This document shows, piece by piece, positions 43,301-49,300 of a stretch of DNA of 64,000 bases. The position numbers are program-made. The stretch spans positions 5,088,001 through 5,152,000 of the forward strand of contig CH464491.1 in assembly GCA_000002445.1 (NCBI GenBank), in the 5' to 3' direction. The stretch is from Trypanosoma brucei. Taxonomy: Eukaryota. The number at the start of each line of letters is the position of its first letter. The stretch's first letter is position 1.

Positions 43301-46300
43301 CATAAAAAATTATATTTGAATTTTAACAAGTTTTGAATTTCCATAAAAAAGCATACAGCTCTGTTTCTAAATCTAAAACATAAAAATATATGGTTCTTCG
43401 TGGAACTTTATCACTGCACATGGCTTGGCGCGATAATTTGGCCTATACACTGCAGAGTGTCTCTTCCTCACTATACCGTCCATCATATTCTTGTGTATGA
43501 AGATACCAATCTGAATGTTTATGTTTGAAACTTAGCATATTCCATCATCATTTACTTTTTATTCCTCCGTTTGCCTTAATAATATTCGTATTTACACACT
43601 CACAACAGTTTCCTATCTTAATAAGAATTATTATTACAATCACTATTATTACTATTACTGCTCTTATTATATATTCGTATACACACACTCACAACACTCT
43701 CCTATCATCATCATCATTACCATTTTTATTATTATTATTACTATCGTTATTATAGCTCTAACTAGTATCCATAAAATAATTCAAAATAAACTAAATTTAA
43801 AAATTAAAATATAACTAATTTTCTTACCCTATCGCCATACTTCTTTAAACCCATATGTCACTTTCAGCAAAAAATTTATATTTTAGAGTTTTTCAAAATT
43901 TCGCATTTTCATGAAAAAGTGTTAAAGTATTTAAAAATTTCGTTAATTTTATAAAACTGAGCAATAATTCTTAACATGCTACCGAACCGATAAAAGCAGC
44001 CATACTCAGGGCAAATCTCTTGTTTACTAGAAAACTACCATTTCGGCACATTTCTTTTTCGGGTTCGGGTTCACCCTCTTTAAACTTCCTCCATGCACAA
44101 TTTTGCTTCTCGCCTGTTTTGTCACTTTCACAATCAGGTTGATATTAGTGCCTTGCACACCCAGTTGAAGCCGCTGCTCCATGCAGCTCCATCTCCAGCT
44201 CCTGCTTTAGGTTTGCATTCCTGTGTTTTTGTGCCATAGTCGCAGTCAGCTTATTGTCATTCTTCTGCAGTTGTGTTTTTTAGTTTGCATTTATTTTGTT
44301 CCTTTACTGTTAGCTTGCCCCTTTGTTTTTGCAGTGTATTTTCGGAATTGGTGATTATGGGGACATTTATTAATATCTTTGGGGGCTGCCGCCGGATTTT
44401 TCGGGGCATGGCGTTGCGCTTGCATTGCCCTGCTGACACTGCAGTTAACTGCTCGCCGCCTCCTCTTTCTTTGGCTGTGTTGCTGTGCTGCACCACGACC
44501 GGTCCAGGCTGCTATGTCGACTGGCTTTATCTGCCGAACATCATATTCTGACGCTTCCAAGGTTAAGATTTTATCGTTAGCGCCTCTTGAAAAGTAAATC
44601 GTCTCGTGCAGCGAAGCTTCCGCGTGCCAGCGTAAAAAGAAAAGGCACGTGCAGCGCTATATTCCACGATCCAGCCCTTTTTTAAAAAAAATGTTTTAAA
44701 GCCGCGCACAGCATAAAATGAAGAGCTGAGCTTCGAAAAAGCAACAAGAGCGAAAATGTAAATTGCAGCTTAAAATAAAAGTAAAAAATAAAGCACGGAC
44801 GTCGGTGGTGTGAATAAGGGTTAGGGTTCGCGGCAAAAAAATAGCCGCTGCATCATTAAGAAAAAGGTATAAGTCGCCACGCATCACTGCTAATAAAAAT
44901 ATCAAAAGGAAAATTAAAACCATAACCCTAACCCTAACCACCTAACCCGAAACACCTTAACCCGAATCACCGCATTTGCCGCTCCGAACAAAAAGGGGCG
45001 CTGACAAAAAAAACGATGCCGGGTTGTAACAAAAAAAAATCAAAAACGAAAAAAATCTGAAAAATGTCGAAAACTAAAAAGCAAAAAAAAAAAAGAGAAT
45101 GTAAAAAAAATGTAAGCTAAAAACCGTTAAAAATTCAAAAAAAATGTAAAAAAAATGTAAAAAAATGTAAAAAAACAAAAACTCGGAAAATAGAAAAAAC
45201 TGAAAAAAAATTTAAAAGAAAAATCTAAACTGGGGCCCGAAGGAAATTAAAAGAAAGTTTAAAAAAGAAAGTGTGTGCTGTAAAATGTGGTAAAAAAAAT
45301 TAATTTTTCAAAAAAAAAGTGAGCAAAAAAAGGTCACGAAAAAAATTAAAATTAAAATTAAAAAAAGGTGCGTTTGCGGGAGGCGTGCGTGGGGGGGGGG
45401 GGAGGAGGGTTAGGGTCCGCACAATCAACAGCTGCTGCATCATTAAAAGAATTTAAAAAATGAATTAAAGAAAAAAGAAAAGAAAAAAAGTAACCCTAAT
45501 CCTAAGCCTAATCCTAAGCCTAATCCTACCTAACCCCATAACTAACCTAACTAACCTAACTACCCCCAATTCCTACTTATCCTCTCTACCACTTGCACAA
45601 AAAGTTAAAGTTAAAAATTCAACAGGAAAAGAAAAATTTTTTTTAGTTTCCAGAAAAACAATTTTTTACAGAATCAGATTTTTTTACAACCAACAAAAAA
45701 TTCTCGAATGAATTTTTAGGTGTTAAAATATATCAGAAGTTTTCAAGTAGCAAAAATTTTTAGCAAGGAAAACTTTAAAAAGAGGGGGAAATTTTGTTTA
45801 GAAAAGCAAGGCCGCAAATGCAGCAGAAGCCACGCCGAGGGCGAATTTCTTGTTTACTAGAAAACTACCATTTCTGCACTTTTCCTTTTCAGGCTCATCT
45901 GTTTCACCCTCCTTACCCTTTCTCCATGCACAATTTTGCTTGTCGCCTGTTTTGTCATTTTCACAAGCGGTTTTATCTTTGTGCCCTGTGCACCAAGCTG
46001 CAGTTGTTCCCCCCTCTTTTGTTGTGCCTTCTGTTCCTGCTGTTTCCGGTGTTGCCGATCCTGGTTTAGATTTGCATTCCCCCTTTCCATCTTTTTCTTC
46101 CCATTTGCAGTTAGCTTTGATGCAAGTCTGGTTTGTTGTGTGAGTGCTACAGTTGGTCGTCGTCTGCCCTATTGTATGCTGTTTTTGAGTTCCTCCTTTG
46201 ATTTTCTCAAGTGCAGCGGCCGTAGCTTTTGCCGAGTCTACAATAACAACTGCATCTTTCTTTAGTTTTTTGATCTGTTCTATTATCTGTAATCCGCGTT

Positions 46301-49300
46301 GCTTGTTGCTTTCAAGTGTTTGAAGGCCTAGCGCTAGGTTTTTTAGCGGGGGTATCCAGGTTAGTTGTTCTACTATAGGCTGTGCCTTGCTTGCGAAGCC
46401 GCTGAACTCTAAGCATACGCCTTGCGCTTTGTTGCCGTCACATTTCGAGCTTGCGAACTGTCCTAGGTATGCGTTGCTGGTGTCTTTGTGTATGAGGTCG
46501 TTGAGGTTAGCTATGGCGGCTAGTATTTCTGTGCCGGTTATTTGTCCTGCGTCAAACGGACATGATTTTGCTAGCTTGCCTAGGTTCGCTGCCGTTACCC
46601 CGGTCGCGAATGTGCTGGCGGCTTCCCAGGTGCCGCCGTCGGCCGCCTGTACGCAAACTGCTGGGTCTACATTGTTTGTGCCTCTAAAGCAGACGCATGT
46701 GAGGGCTTCCAGGGCTGTTGCCGGGTTGCCGTTGCCGCCTGCAGCTTTGCATACCGAGTCCCTTGTGCCTGTTGTTGTGCCTGTAAAAACCTTTGATGGG
46801 TCTGGGTTGCTTGCTGGCTTTGCATTTTCTCCGTATACGGCTGTTGCTATGGTTTCTTTTGCCGTGTTATCCTTGGGTGCGTCGGACGGTGGTTGTATGC
46901 TCTGCAATTCTTTCGCCAGCTCGTGCGCTCTTGTTCTAATGTGCTTTAAGTGATCCCGGGCTAGAGTTTCTTGGTCTTCGGTTAGTTCCATTATGCCCGC
47001 CTGGTTTTTTTGTCCCCCCGTCGTTGCTTCCAGTTTTTTGGCGGCGATCTTTGTCCACCGAGGCCAGTTTTCTTCAAACCCTCTGCCATCCTGGCCCGCT
47101 GATTTTGGGTTATCGTGCGTTTTCTTCGCAGCTTTGTCGCTGTAAAACATTTCTTGCCAAGATCCTGTTGCTGCTGAAAAATTTACCATGTGTATGTAGT
47201 CCAGGTCGTCTTCTGGCATAGCCGGTATGGTCGGTATCTCTACTTCGCGCGGTGCCATCGCCACGAATTTGCACAAAGCCGCGTGTTCCTGGCGGTTGGC
47301 TCCGCCCACAATGTCTGTCCCTTCTGTTTTCGTCACTAACCAAAGCACAATCGTCATTGGTAGCATTATTGCGTACATTTCAGCGGTCTCTGTGGTGAAA
47401 CCTTGTGTTGTTGACCTTTATTGTGTCCATATAATATGCAGATGTTGTTGTTAAAAAAATCAGCTTATCTTTGGGGTATACTTTGTCTTAAACAGAAAAG
47501 TAATTAGCGTGGTCACCTAGCCGTGCTCTCGACCCTTGGTTGTTAACAGCTACACTCGTGCCAAAACGCTGTTATTTCTTTTATTTTGACTTTATTTTGT
47601 GACGGTGCCGAGATCAGCGCTGGTAGTGTGCTCACCAACCACATGTACTCATCCTCAGCAATGTGGTGTAAAACAATAAGGTTAGGATTACTTTCTAAAA
47701 ATCTATCTAGTGGCCTTTGTAAATGCATGACATAACGACAATCTTGCATATACACTGTTAATAAACTTTCAAATTTCAATTTACTCCTTATAACATCTCC
47801 AACTATAATATCTTCATTAAGTGCTCTAAAATCGATATAGGTTTTGAAATCTCTGAATTTAATTGGTGACTTTATTAATTTTTTCAGTGCTTCATAATCA
47901 ACAATTGCCATAACTACATACCTAGATAAAGTGGACGCATAACCTATCGTGTGCCATGTAATTTCATCACTAAATTCTTTAGGATATCCAACAGCTCTCC
48001 CCATATTCAATTTTTCTCTTGGAAGCAGCTCTAGATATTTTAGATACAGTGGCACTCTCATAAAAATATCATCATCTGCTTTCATAATATAAGGATTAGT
48101 TGTTTTGAATATTTCAACTTCAAATTTGAATTACAAATATGTATTTCTACTCCTAGTGAGTTCTGCCTCCCAGCCCCAATTACCCGCATCTCCAACTTCT
48201 TTATCTGTTGTAGGGTTCACATCGCACACGGGTAAAATAATAACATCCTGATATAAATACCCTTCTTCTCCAAGAACTTCTCTTAGCTCACAATTGTTAT
48301 TTGTGTGAGGTGAAAGAGCATATATTACAAGAAACTTTCCAGTAAAATTATTTACCTTTCTCGCCACTTCGGGATAACTCCAACACGTGTCTCTCTGTAA
48401 ATTCCTTCTTCTGAACCTTTTATCATTATCTATCGAAGGTATTCCAACTACAACCAAATAATCTTCAGTTTTCCAAATCCTCCTAACATCTTGCGAAATA
48501 AATTTCATATACTTATCTTCAACAATATCTAGTGAAATGGATTCACCTTCATTGAACAAGCCATAGAGTGACACACACAAACTGATGCACATAAAAATAA
48601 AAGGTAAACAACATACTGCTGCATAGATACATCTTATATAATTCAGAAAGCACTATTACCATACTAACGGAAACTTTGAAATACTTACTAAATGATAAAA
48701 ACCTGAGAATATGAAGTCGTTTGCAGCACAAAGGTGTTTACATAAGTAATACCTTGATATACTTATGATATGGCTATTGAACGGTGTATGCTCAGTGCCT
48801 GCAGCTTACGGTTGAGCACGTGTGTACGGTTTCTTTTTCAGTCGTAAGATGCGGGCACATCTATGGAGTCACAACTACTTTCATTCCGCAGTTTTTTGTA
48901 TACATATTTCTATTCTATACGCTGTTATGTGAATTTTTGTAACCAGTTACACCGATGTGTACAAAGGATAGTAAGAATTTTACCAACATCCTGTGATAAC
49001 TACCCTATTCACCGTATTTCATTATCAAAATCTTTTCACCTTAGATAGATAAACTACAGTTACTACTATTTCTTCCACCATTTCTGCAGTTACATCAATC
49101 TGCTTTTTTGTAAAATGCGCGCATGATCGGTTTATCATGTATAACTTTCTTTTTCACTGGCCTCTTTCACATTCTTTTGATTCTCTGCTATGCTTTCCTT
49201 CATTTTTTGAATACTGCTCCCCTCGCTGCGGATAAGTTAGCGAGTTTATTTGGCTTATACACTGGACTATTTCCAACTATGATTGTCGACTCTGTCATCT

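What the first reader, a model, noticed from the sequence alone, without database searches (positions are those of the whole stretch)
43565..48600. Segmental duplication of a composite block (70-bp repeat, VSG 3' remnant, telomere-like tract, intact VSG, GT31 gene): 43.5-48.6 kb versus 59.4-63.3 kb
Both blocks have the same gene order and orientation, and homologous junction sequences. Examples are gctgcatcattaag versus gctgcatcgctaat spacers, a shared degenerate telomere tail, and shared mid-C-terminal-domain VSG DNA at 46060-46150 versus 60700-60790. The VSG N-domains have diverged or been replaced. This suggests a duplicated ex-telomeric unit followed by VSG mosaic conversion.
Basis: seen in the sequence. 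Interest (0 to 1): 0.55.

Follow-up and report, generated by a model that had tools for sequence, protein, structure and literature searches.

The report
Two old ex-telomeric VSG cassettes
Two neighbouring stretches of a Trypanosoma brucei surface-antigen gene array are old, much-reshuffled copies of one former chromosome-end unit (dead glycosyltransferase gene, intact VSG gene, short leftover telomere tract), which is real but an ordinary product of known subtelomere dynamics.

Summary
The window is a T. b. brucei TREU927 chromosome 11 VSG array; VSG-B is 100% identical to a TREU927 protein. All VSGs lie on the minus strand.

The paired architecture is real. In gene order each block has a glycosyltransferase (GT) pseudogene, an intact b-type VSG, a 3'UTR 16-mer, a shared roughly 150-bp flank, a (TTAGGG)n-like tract of telomeric polarity, a shared junction element "X", a truncated VSG 3' remnant and a 70-bp repeat.

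Specific homology lies on one diagonal (offset about 14.69 kb) but covers only 45.41-49.09 kb versus 60.06-63.80 kb, and it is patchy:
- X is about 70% identical.
- The telomere-to-16-mer flank is 72% identical.
- A mid-CTD patch is 92% identical over 114 bp.
- The GT gene is 88% identical and its upstream region 69%.
- The VSG N-domains (26% aa), distal CTD, GT-VSG spacer and GT 3' end are unrelated.

The remnants and 70-bp repeats are analogous, not homologous.

The GT similarity is inflated by a sharp-edged 403-bp tract at 99.5% identity, which I read as gene conversion and which carries the shared TAA nonsense codon. Outside that tract the two GTs are no closer to each other than to four other TREU927 GT proteins.

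Verdict: these are old paralogous ex-telomeric cassettes with later patchy conversion, not a recent segmental duplication. It is a new instance of a known kind, of modest interest.

The parts
49455..49510 (-). 70-bp repeat upstream of GT-A. It is the upstream limit of cassette A, so the 70-bp-delimited cassette holds the GT pseudogene plus the VSG.
   Evidence: 70-bp core match at 49464-49483 with 2 mismatches; sequence read.
48593..49086 (-). GT-A upstream region, homologous to 63335-63795
   Evidence: 69% identity, z = 16.8; part of the blastn HSP 47624-49086 versus 62312-63795.
47543..48592 (-). [quoted passage not shown] TAA replaces a conserved Trp at 48131-48133, and the upstream ATG seen in copy B is absent.
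   Evidence: Translations; homologues at 65-72% identity; alignment with paralogues shows W at the stop position; TAA confirmed.
47891..48293 (-). Gene-conversion tract shared with 62579-62981. It is 403 bp with 2 mismatches and contains the shared nonsense codon.
   Evidence: Identity profile; mismatch map with sharp edges.
47379..47542 (-). GT-A to VSG-A spacer. It has no 70-bp repeat and no homology to block B.
   Evidence: z = 1.6; sequence read.
45798..47378 (-). VSG-A: intact b-type VSG of 526 aa
   Evidence: Pfam VSG_B 4.8e-72 and Trypan_glycop_C 5.2e-28; 26% identity to VSG-B.
46038..46151 (-). Mid-CTD patch shared with 60679-60792 (encodes KANCKWEEK.GKGECKSKPG...)
   Evidence: 92% over 114 bp, z = 31.6; protein alignment.
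45567..45797 (-). VSG-A 3'UTR (16-mer at 45720-45735) and telomeric-type 3' flank, homologous to 60274-60489
   Evidence: 16-mer located; 84% (z = 10.9) and 72% (z = 7.8); control flank at 4.3-4.5 kb is not similar.
45490..45566 (-). Degenerate telomere tract J2 (TTAGGG-like on the VSG sense strand; includes (TAAGCCTAATCC)x3)
45407..45489 (-). Junction element X, copy J2 (GGGTTAGGGT ... GCTGCATCATTAA ... A-rich)
   Evidence: 70% identity to J3, z = 7.4.
44971..45406 (.). A-rich spacer between the two telomere-tract + X modules of block A; matches nothing else
   Evidence: No significant similarity to the VSG 3' flanks.
44925..44970 (-). Degenerate telomere tract J1
44818..44924 (-). Junction element X, copy J1
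   Evidence: 45393-45551 versus 44804-44961 is 65% over 167 bp.
43995..44560 (-). Truncated, frameshifted VSG 3' remnant of block A. Its CTD at 44001-44180 is 80-83% identical to VSG-A's own distal CTD. It is not homologous to the block B remnant.
   Evidence: blastx; remnant versus remnant z = 2.8.
43575..43790 (-). Two 70-bp repeats. By position (sequence reading) they lie upstream of the next VSG (40670-42265). Similarity to block B is only generic.
   Evidence: TRF period 89, 1.9 copies; core matches at 43589 and 43678.
63335..63795 (-). GT-B upstream region, homologous to 48593-49086
62222..63334 (-). GT-B pseudogene, with the same TAA nonsense codon at 62819-62821
62579..62981 (-). Gene-conversion tract, partner of 47891-48293
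60490..62010 (-). VSG-B: intact b-type VSG of 506 aa, 100% identical to an annotated TREU927 VSG
   Evidence: Pfam.
60274..60489 (-). VSG-B 3'UTR (16-mer at 60415-60430) and telomeric-type 3' flank
60164..60273 (-). Telomere tract J3: about 12 AACCCT units on the + strand (8 perfect), plus CTAACTAACCTAAC variants shared with J2
   Evidence: TRF.
60046..60163 (-). Junction element X, copy J3 (GCTTAGCTCCCGCG ... GCTGCATCGCTAA ... A-rich)
59739..59960 (-). Truncated VSG CTD remnant of block B, of a different CTD type from remnant A; best match is 37561-38005
59411..59480 (-). Single degenerate 70-bp-repeat-like element
   Evidence: 77% over 81 bp to the block A repeats, z = 4.8; not found with up to 3 mismatches to the core.

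Best explanation
Blocks A and B are two old paralogous copies of one ex-telomeric VSG cassette, 14.7 kb apart in direct orientation in a T. b. brucei TREU927 chromosome 11 array.

**The unit, in gene sense**
1. A 70-bp repeat (seen for A only; the equivalent position for B falls beyond the window end).
2. About 0.9 kb of upstream sequence.
3. A GT-family pseudogene.
4. A VSG with no 70-bp repeat of its own.
5. A 3'UTR with the 16-mer.
6. A roughly 150-bp flank of the kind found beside telomeric VSGs.
7. A short TTAGGG tract.
8. Junction element X.

**Inferred history**
1. A chromosome end carrying GT-VSG-telomere became internal. X is the scar of that event, or the sequence just beyond it.
2. 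The unit was copied, and in block A the telomere-tract + X module was copied again.
3. The copies drifted to about 70% identity in non-coding DNA.
4. Recombination typical of VSG arrays then replaced the segment from the GT 3' end to the VSG mid-CTD, and also the distal CTD.
5. Patches were homogenised: 403 bp of the GT recently, and 114 bp of the VSG CTD earlier.

**Shown versus inferred**
- Shown: the anatomy, the homology map, the conversion-tract signature, the pseudogene status and the telomeric polarity.
- Inferred: the order of events, and whether the copying was local.
For: - Four collinear homology segments lie on one diagonal (offsets 14,646-14,698), and 45.4-49.1 kb matches nothing else in the window.
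- Segment tests: X z = 7.4; telomere-to-16-mer flank z = 7.8; 16-mer-to-stop z = 10.9; mid-CTD z = 31.6; GT z = 190; GT upstream z = 16.8.
- X occurs only at the three telomere-tract junctions.
- J2 and J3 share the variant repeats CTAACTAACCTAAC at the VSG-proximal edge.
- The 3' flank is specific to A and B; a control flank gives z = 0.2-0.6.
- TTAGGG is on the VSG sense strand 217-232 bp after the stop codon, which fits the reported expression-site spacing.
- Non-coding identities are uniform (69-72%), as expected if the parts have one age.
- The 403-bp, 99.5% tract has sharp edges.
- Subtelomeric duplication and transposition of these GT genes is documented (PMC5853035; PMC4288722).
Against: - Outside the conversion tract the two GTs are no closer to each other than to four other TREU927 GT proteins. 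The copying may therefore be as old as the family's spread and need not have been local.
- About 40% of the unit (VSG N-domain, distal CTD, spacer, GT 3' end) shows no homology.
- The mid-CTD patch lies in a part of VSGs that is conserved among many genes. Other CTD pairs in the window reach 80-92% over 64-188 bp.
- What follows X differs between the blocks.
- I could not examine any other T. brucei locus, so how common X and this module are in the genome is unknown.
Confidence: 0.6

Rival explanations
1. There was no duplication of this locus. A and B are independent members of a genome-wide family of GT-VSG-telomere chromosome-end modules that were internalised separately. One route would be an eroded telomere invading an existing interstitial tract and copying onward. 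X is then a standard or templated part of such ends, not a shared scar.
For: - The GT flanks are as close or closer to other TREU927 GT proteins than to each other: N-flank 74% against 82-83%.
- The sequence after X, and the VSG remnants, are unrelated.
- Three X modules are about equally diverged (69-75%), and two of them are tandem within block A.
- GT expansion by transposition between subtelomeres has been proposed.
Against: - Homology on one diagonal includes the GT-upstream non-coding DNA and the C-flank, where A and B are each other's best match (68% against 58-66%).
- All non-coding parts share one divergence level.
- No other copy of the module or of X occurs in 64 kb holding roughly a dozen VSG cassettes.
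Confidence: 0.28
2. Only the GT genes are related. All other similarity is generic to VSG cassettes (CTD, 16-mer, AT-rich UTRs, simple telomere repeats).
For: - The CTD, the 16-mer region and the 70-bp/3'UTR similarities are indeed generic.
- The remnants are not homologous.
Against: - X (z = 7.4) and the telomere-to-16-mer flank (z = 6.5-7.8) are not generic. X occurs nowhere else, and the control flank is dissimilar.
- The GT-upstream homology gives z = 16.8.
Confidence: 0.06
3. Assembly artefact: the internal telomere tracts come from chimeric joins or a collapsed repeat in the assembly.
For: Subtelomeric arrays are hard to assemble, and internal telomere repeats are a classic sign of mis-joins. 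This rests on general knowledge.
Against: - The tracts are short and partly degenerate, with shared variant repeats.
- They are flanked on both sides by diverged (about 70%) homologous sequence in three copies. A recent mis-join would not produce that.
Confidence: 0.03

Closest known systems
Telomeric VSG cassette at T. brucei expression-site or minichromosome ends (70-bp repeats, VSG, short flank, TTAGGG repeats)
   Same: - An intact VSG transcribed toward a TTAGGG tract on its sense strand.
- An intact 3'UTR 16-mer.
- A tract 217-232 bp after the stop codon, within the reported 200-1590 nt.
- A 70-bp repeat upstream of cassette A.
   Different: - The tract is internal, only 8-13 units long and partly degenerate.
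- It is followed by X and more array.
- A GT pseudogene sits between the 70-bp repeat and the VSG.
- No promoter or ESAGs were identified.
Subtelomeric expansion of trypanosome UDP-glycosyltransferase genes (PMC5853035); CAZy GT67, a GT31-like family, by my own recollection
   Same: - 65-72% identity to TREU927 family members.
- The DDD motif is present.
- Subtelomeric location and pseudogene status match what is reported.
   Different: - Both copies are dead, with a TAA nonsense codon.
- They share a recent conversion tract.
- I did not find their linkage to a VSG and a fossil telomere tract described in the papers I could search.
Interstitial telomeric sequences as relics of former chromosome ends (general eukaryotic phenomenon)
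   Same: Short, degenerate, correctly oriented telomere repeats lying inside a chromosome next to subtelomere-type genes.
   Different: - Three copies share a specific junction element that begins with one inverted telomere unit.
- No fusion partner is identifiable.
Segmental (mosaic) VSG gene conversion in silent arrays
   Same: - Patchy identity with sharp boundaries.
- CTD and 3' flank retained while the N-domain differs.
   Different: - The clearest tract is in the neighbouring GT pseudogene, not in the VSG.
- No donor was identified.

Membership tests
T. brucei variant surface glycoprotein (b-type) | VSG_B N-terminal domain plus the VSG C-terminal domain, above Pfam cut-offs, in one uninterrupted ORF | tested here: met
   
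- VSG-A: 243.6 and 97.9 bits.
- VSG-B: 263 and 46.9 bits.
- Both are ATG-to-stop ORFs.
- Both have hydrophobic C-terminal tails.
T. brucei variant surface glycoprotein (b-type) | Conserved 3'UTR 16-mer TGATATATTTTAACAC | tested here: met
   Exact matches at 45720 and 60415 on the minus strand. Only one other exact copy exists in the window.
[quoted passage not shown] | Pfam Galactosyl_T (PF01762) at or above the gathering score | tested here: not met
   16.3 and 14.9 bits against a cut-off of 23. The separate ORF halves gave no hit.
[quoted passage not shown] | Full-length homology to named family members, with the DxD (DDD) motif | tested here: met
   - E = 1e-135, with 65-72% identity to TREU927 proteins that carry PF01762.
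- The KADDDIFMR motif is invariant in the alignment.
[quoted passage not shown] | Intact coding sequence (functional enzyme) | tested here: not met
   - TAA replaces a conserved Trp in both copies.
- Copy A also lacks the upstream ATG and part of the N-terminal hydrophobic stretch seen in copy B.
Segmental duplication (usual operational definition: at least 1 kb at 90% identity or more; my own knowledge) | At least 90% identity over at least 1 kb | tested here: not met
   - Best segment: 87.7% over 1,032 bp.
- Wider alignments: 78% over 1,492 bp and 67% over 675 bp.
Segmental duplication (looser sense: paralogous multi-feature block) | Collinear homology across several independent features, including non-coding junctions | tested here: met
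   X, telomere tract, 3' flank, mid-CTD, GT and GT upstream all lie on one diagonal.
Gene-conversion tract | Near-identity block with abrupt edges inside more diverged paralogues | tested here: met
   - 2 mismatches in 403 bp.
- The flanks carry about one mismatch per 5-8 bp.
- Identity profile.
Telomere repeat (TTAGGG)n, ex-telomeric | Tandem hexamers with the G-strand running 3' of the VSG | tested here: met
   - Block B has 8 perfect tandem units plus variants.
- The block A tracts are degenerate, with 2 perfect units in J1 and variant units in J2.
70-bp repeat | Match to the conserved GT-rich core with a flanking TAA/TTA-type tract | tested here: inconclusive
   - Block A: clear at 43589 and 43678, and at 49464 upstream of GT-A.
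- Block B: the 59411-59480 element is too degenerate for the core search.
Metacyclic-type VSG expression site (considered because no 70-bp repeat adjoins the VSG) | Pol I promoter a short distance upstream of the VSG, and a terminal position on the chromosome | not tested
   - I have no reliable promoter model here.
- The loci are internal.
- The GT-VSG spacers (164 and 211 bp) are unrelated to each other.

The most novel reading that the evidence does not exclude
The telomere-tract + X modules could be a fossil record of how VSG arrays grow. Under this reading each [70-bp repeat, GT, VSG, TTAGGG tract, X] unit is a former chromosome end that was buried when an eroded telomere was repaired by copying or joining onto more array. 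X would be the reusable landing site or scar. Such modules, found genome-wide, would then date and order the steps of subtelomere accretion. They would also mark intact, donor-competent VSGs.
Probability: 0.15. Interest if true: 0.6.

Novelty: new member of a known kind. Interest (0 to 1): 0.3.

Why it matters
The locus gives a concrete, dated-by-divergence example of three processes at once. A telomeric VSG cassette ended up inside a silent array. A passenger GT pseudogene travelled with it. Patchy gene conversion then reshaped the copies.

The two cassettes hold two of the few intact VSGs in this window. Their only recognisable upstream 70-bp repeat lies beyond the GT pseudogene, which could influence how these genes are copied during antigenic switching (inference).

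Short internal TTAGGG tracts are also candidate binding sites for telomere proteins, or fragile sites, within silent arrays (inference, untested).

None of this overturns current understanding of T. brucei subtelomeres.

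Tried and rejected
- **Genomic context of paralogues.** The look-up of encoding contigs found nothing on record for three TREU927 GT proteins or for VSG-A and VSG-B. I could inspect no other T. brucei locus.
- **Larger tandem duplication with a 14.7-kb period.** Rejected. The regions downstream of the blocks do not match collinearly. Remnant B matches 37.6-38.0 kb at a different offset.
- **The shared nonsense codon as proof of duplication after pseudogenisation.** Rejected, because the codon lies inside the conversion tract.
- **The GT 3' end as a replacement by unrelated DNA.** Rejected. 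Both C-termini still align with the family (W-E-SC ending).
- **The A-rich 435-bp spacer, or the post-X sequence, as a copy of the VSG 3' flank.** No significant similarity.
- **A fourth X copy at 44608-44660.** Unconvincing.
- **Rfam.** No hits in the window.
- **VSG fragments at 51.4-59.5 kb.** No blastx match to the window's VSGs.
- **Literature.** I found no open-access description of interstitial telomere tracts in T. brucei arrays, or of the X motif. Marcello & Barry 2007 and Callejas 2006 are not held. This is absence in the searchable library, not proof of novelty.

Full report
**Identity of the region**

All VSG-like ORFs in the window are on the minus strand. The ORFs at 45798-47378 (VSG-A) and 60490-62010 (VSG-B) carry full VSG_B and Trypan_glycop_C domains. 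VSG-B is 100% identical to an annotated VSG of T. brucei brucei TREU927 on a 5.26-Mb contig, which I take to be chromosome 11. The window is therefore a silent subtelomeric VSG array of a long-published reference genome.

**Checking the observation**

A standard blastn of the two blocks gives four matches:
- one strong match, 47663-48692 versus 62351-63379, at 87.7% over 1,032 bp;
- 46038-46151 versus 60679-60792, at 92% over 114 bp;
- 45719-45772 versus 60414-60466;
- the telomere-like tracts.

A more sensitive blastn joins these into collinear segments on one diagonal, with offsets of 14,646-14,698:
- 45410-45479 versus 60056-60133;
- 45489-46151 versus 60187-60792, at 67% over 675 bp;
- 47624-49086 versus 62312-63795, at 78% over 1,492 bp.

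Nothing aligns between 46151-47624 and 60792-62312. When block A is searched against the whole window, 45.4-49.1 kb matches only block B, apart from its own internal repeat and one generic CTD hit.

Segment-by-segment alignments against dinucleotide shuffles:

| Segment | Identity | z |
|---|---|---|
| Junction element X | 70% | 7.4 |
| Telomere tract to 16-mer | 72% | 7.8 |
| 16-mer to stop codon | 84% | 10.9 |
| Distal CTD | not significant | 1.1 |
| Mid-CTD | 92% | 31.6 |
| VSG N-domain | not significant | 0.6 |
| GT-VSG spacer | not significant | 1.6 |
| GT 3' end | not significant | 0.7 |
| Rest of GT | 88% | 190 |
| GT upstream (about 490 bp) | 69% | 16.8 |
| VSG 3' remnants | not significant | 2.8 |

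The homologous unit is 45.41-49.09 versus 60.06-63.80 kb, and it probably continues past the window end. It is not the stated 43.5-48.6 versus 59.4-63.3 kb.

The VSG remnants, degenerate 3'UTRs and 70-bp repeats on the left of each block are the same kinds of thing, but each matches other cassettes in the window better than its supposed partner.

**Anatomy, in gene sense**

Cassette A reads as follows.
1. A 70-bp repeat (49455-49510).
2. About 0.9 kb of upstream sequence.
3. The GT pseudogene (48592 down to 47543).
4. A 164-bp spacer with no 70-bp repeat.
5. Intact VSG-A.
6. The exact 16-mer, 62 nt after the stop codon.
7. A 150-bp flank.
8. A degenerate TTAGGG tract (45566 down to 45490).
9. 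X (45489 down to 45407).
10. A run of C on the sense strand, then a 435-bp T-rich spacer.
11. A second degenerate tract (44970 down to 44925).
12. A second X (44924 down to 44818).
13. About 250 bp of unassigned sequence.
14. A frameshifted VSG C-terminal remnant. Its CTD is 80-83% identical to VSG-A's own distal CTD.
15. A degenerate 3'UTR.
16. Two 70-bp repeats (43790 down to 43575), which by position lie upstream of the next VSG.

Cassette B has the same order. It has one tract of about 12 units, 8 of them perfect (60273 down to 60164), and one X (60163 down to 60046). Its CTD remnant is short and of a different type. It ends in one degenerate 70-bp-like element.

The three X copies align clearly. 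On the plus strand the element reads GGGTTAGGGT, about 20 nt, GCTGCATCATTAA, 45-70 nt of A-rich sequence, then (CCCTAA)n. The motif GCTGCATCATTAA, allowing up to 2 mismatches, occurs nowhere else in the window. J2 and J3 also share the variant repeats CTAACTAACCTAAC at the VSG-proximal edge of the tract.

**Why 'ex-telomeric' is reasonable**

- The tracts are TTAGGG on the VSG sense strand, which is the polarity of a VSG transcribed toward a chromosome end.
- They begin 217-232 bp after the stop codon. Bloodstream expression sites show 200-1590 nt between the VSG and the telomere repeats (PMC2567434).
- Both VSGs are intact and keep the exact 16-mer. Only one other copy of the 16-mer exists in the window.
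- The flank between the 16-mer and the tract is shared by A and B (z = 6.5) but not by the control VSG flank at 4.3-4.5 kb (z = 0.2-0.6).

**The 'GT31' genes**

Pfam Galactosyl_T is only a sub-threshold hit (16.3 bits against a cut-off of 23). [quoted passage not shown]

Both copies are pseudogenes. TAA replaces a Trp that is conserved in all five paralogues.

**The identity profile is the key result**

- A 403-bp tract (47891-48293 versus 62579-62981) has only 2 mismatches.
- It has abrupt edges and is flanked by 72-90% identity.
- I read this as the signature of a recent gene-conversion tract.
- It contains the shared nonsense codon, so that codon does not show duplication after pseudogenisation.

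Outside the tract the two copies are no closer to each other than to other TREU927 GT proteins:

| Region | A versus B | Best to another paralogue |
|---|---|---|
| N-flank | 74% aa | 82-83% |
| C-flank | 68% | 66% |
| C-tail | 28% | 44% |

These are old family members, not recent sisters.

**Interpretation**

Several kinds of non-coding homology share one diagonal, and all sit at about 70% identity. Together with the private junction element X, this argues that A and B descend from one ex-telomeric cassette that was copied long ago.

The VSG N-domains are 26% identical, and the distal CTD, the spacer and the GT 3' end show no significant homology to each other. These cannot have reached non-detectability by the same neutral drift that left the flanks at 70%.

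The term 'segmental duplication' overstates the case. The usual threshold of at least 90% over at least 1 kb is not met, and the GT comparison shows the event is as old as the spread of this GT lineage. Subtelomeric duplication and transposition of these GT genes is already documented, as is their variability as pseudogenes (PMC5853035; PMC4288722; PMC2854126).

**Main rival**

The main rival (about 0.28) holds that A and B were internalised independently from a dispersed family of GT-VSG-telomere ends, with X being a standard or templated component of such ends. I could not test this, because no other T. brucei locus was retrievable. I also found no description of such tracts, or of X, in the searchable literature.

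**Unexplained**

- The origin of X, including its single inverted telomere unit facing the tract.
- The tandem doubling of tract + X in block A, with a spacer that matches nothing.
- The resemblance between remnant A and VSG-A's own distal CTD.

**Verdict**

The phenomenon is a new instance of known subtelomere dynamics in a well-annotated genome. Interest is about 0.3.

Noticed in passing
window 40193-40349: A perfect (ATT)52 microsatellite, 157 bp with 100% matches, inside the 70-bp-repeat region downstream of the VSG at 40670-42265. It is far longer and cleaner than the other TAA-type tracts in the window.
   Followed up: no
window ~53300-58400, + strand: A degenerate ingi-like non-LTR retrotransposon on the strand opposite to all VSGs, lying between blocks A and B. 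It has a weak endonuclease fragment (53948-54319), an RVT_1 + RNase_H ORF (54860-57400) and a C2H2 ORF (57744-58394). A VSG 3'-end-like sequence and a 70-bp core sit just to its left (52928-53338), so it may have split a VSG.
   Followed up: partly
window 49455-49510: The 70-bp repeat of cassette A lies upstream of the GT pseudogene, about 2 kb from VSG-A, and none lies between the GT and the VSG. A 70-bp-primed conversion would carry the GT pseudogene along with the VSG.
   Followed up: partly
window 45491-45528: The degenerate telomere tract J2 has a 12-bp periodicity, (TAAGCCTAATCC)x3 at 96% match. This implies that mutated hexamer pairs were re-amplified by slippage after the tract became internal.
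   Followed up: no
window 43995-44221 versus 45825-46080: The truncated VSG remnant of block A is 80-91% identical to VSG-A's own distal CTD at a constant spacing of about 1830-1859 bp. Block A therefore contains its own partial tandem repeat of a CTD on either side of the telomere tracts.
   Followed up: partly
window 4524, 45720, 60415: Only three exact copies of the VSG 3'UTR 16-mer exist among roughly a dozen VSG cassettes in the window. Two of the three belong to the telomere-tract cassettes.
   Followed up: partly
window 45393-45405 and 60467-60479: Two runs of about 13 G on the + strand. One abuts X copy J2, and the other lies in the VSG-B 3'UTR just after the stop codon. Significance unknown.
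   Followed up: no
window 8117-9595 and 18050-19522: Two long VSG-like ORFs gave no Pfam VSG-domain hit at E <= 0.01. The 8-kb ORF nonetheless ends in a VSG-type C-terminus that is 77% identical to VSG-B's. They may be a-type or degenerate N-domains.
   Followed up: no
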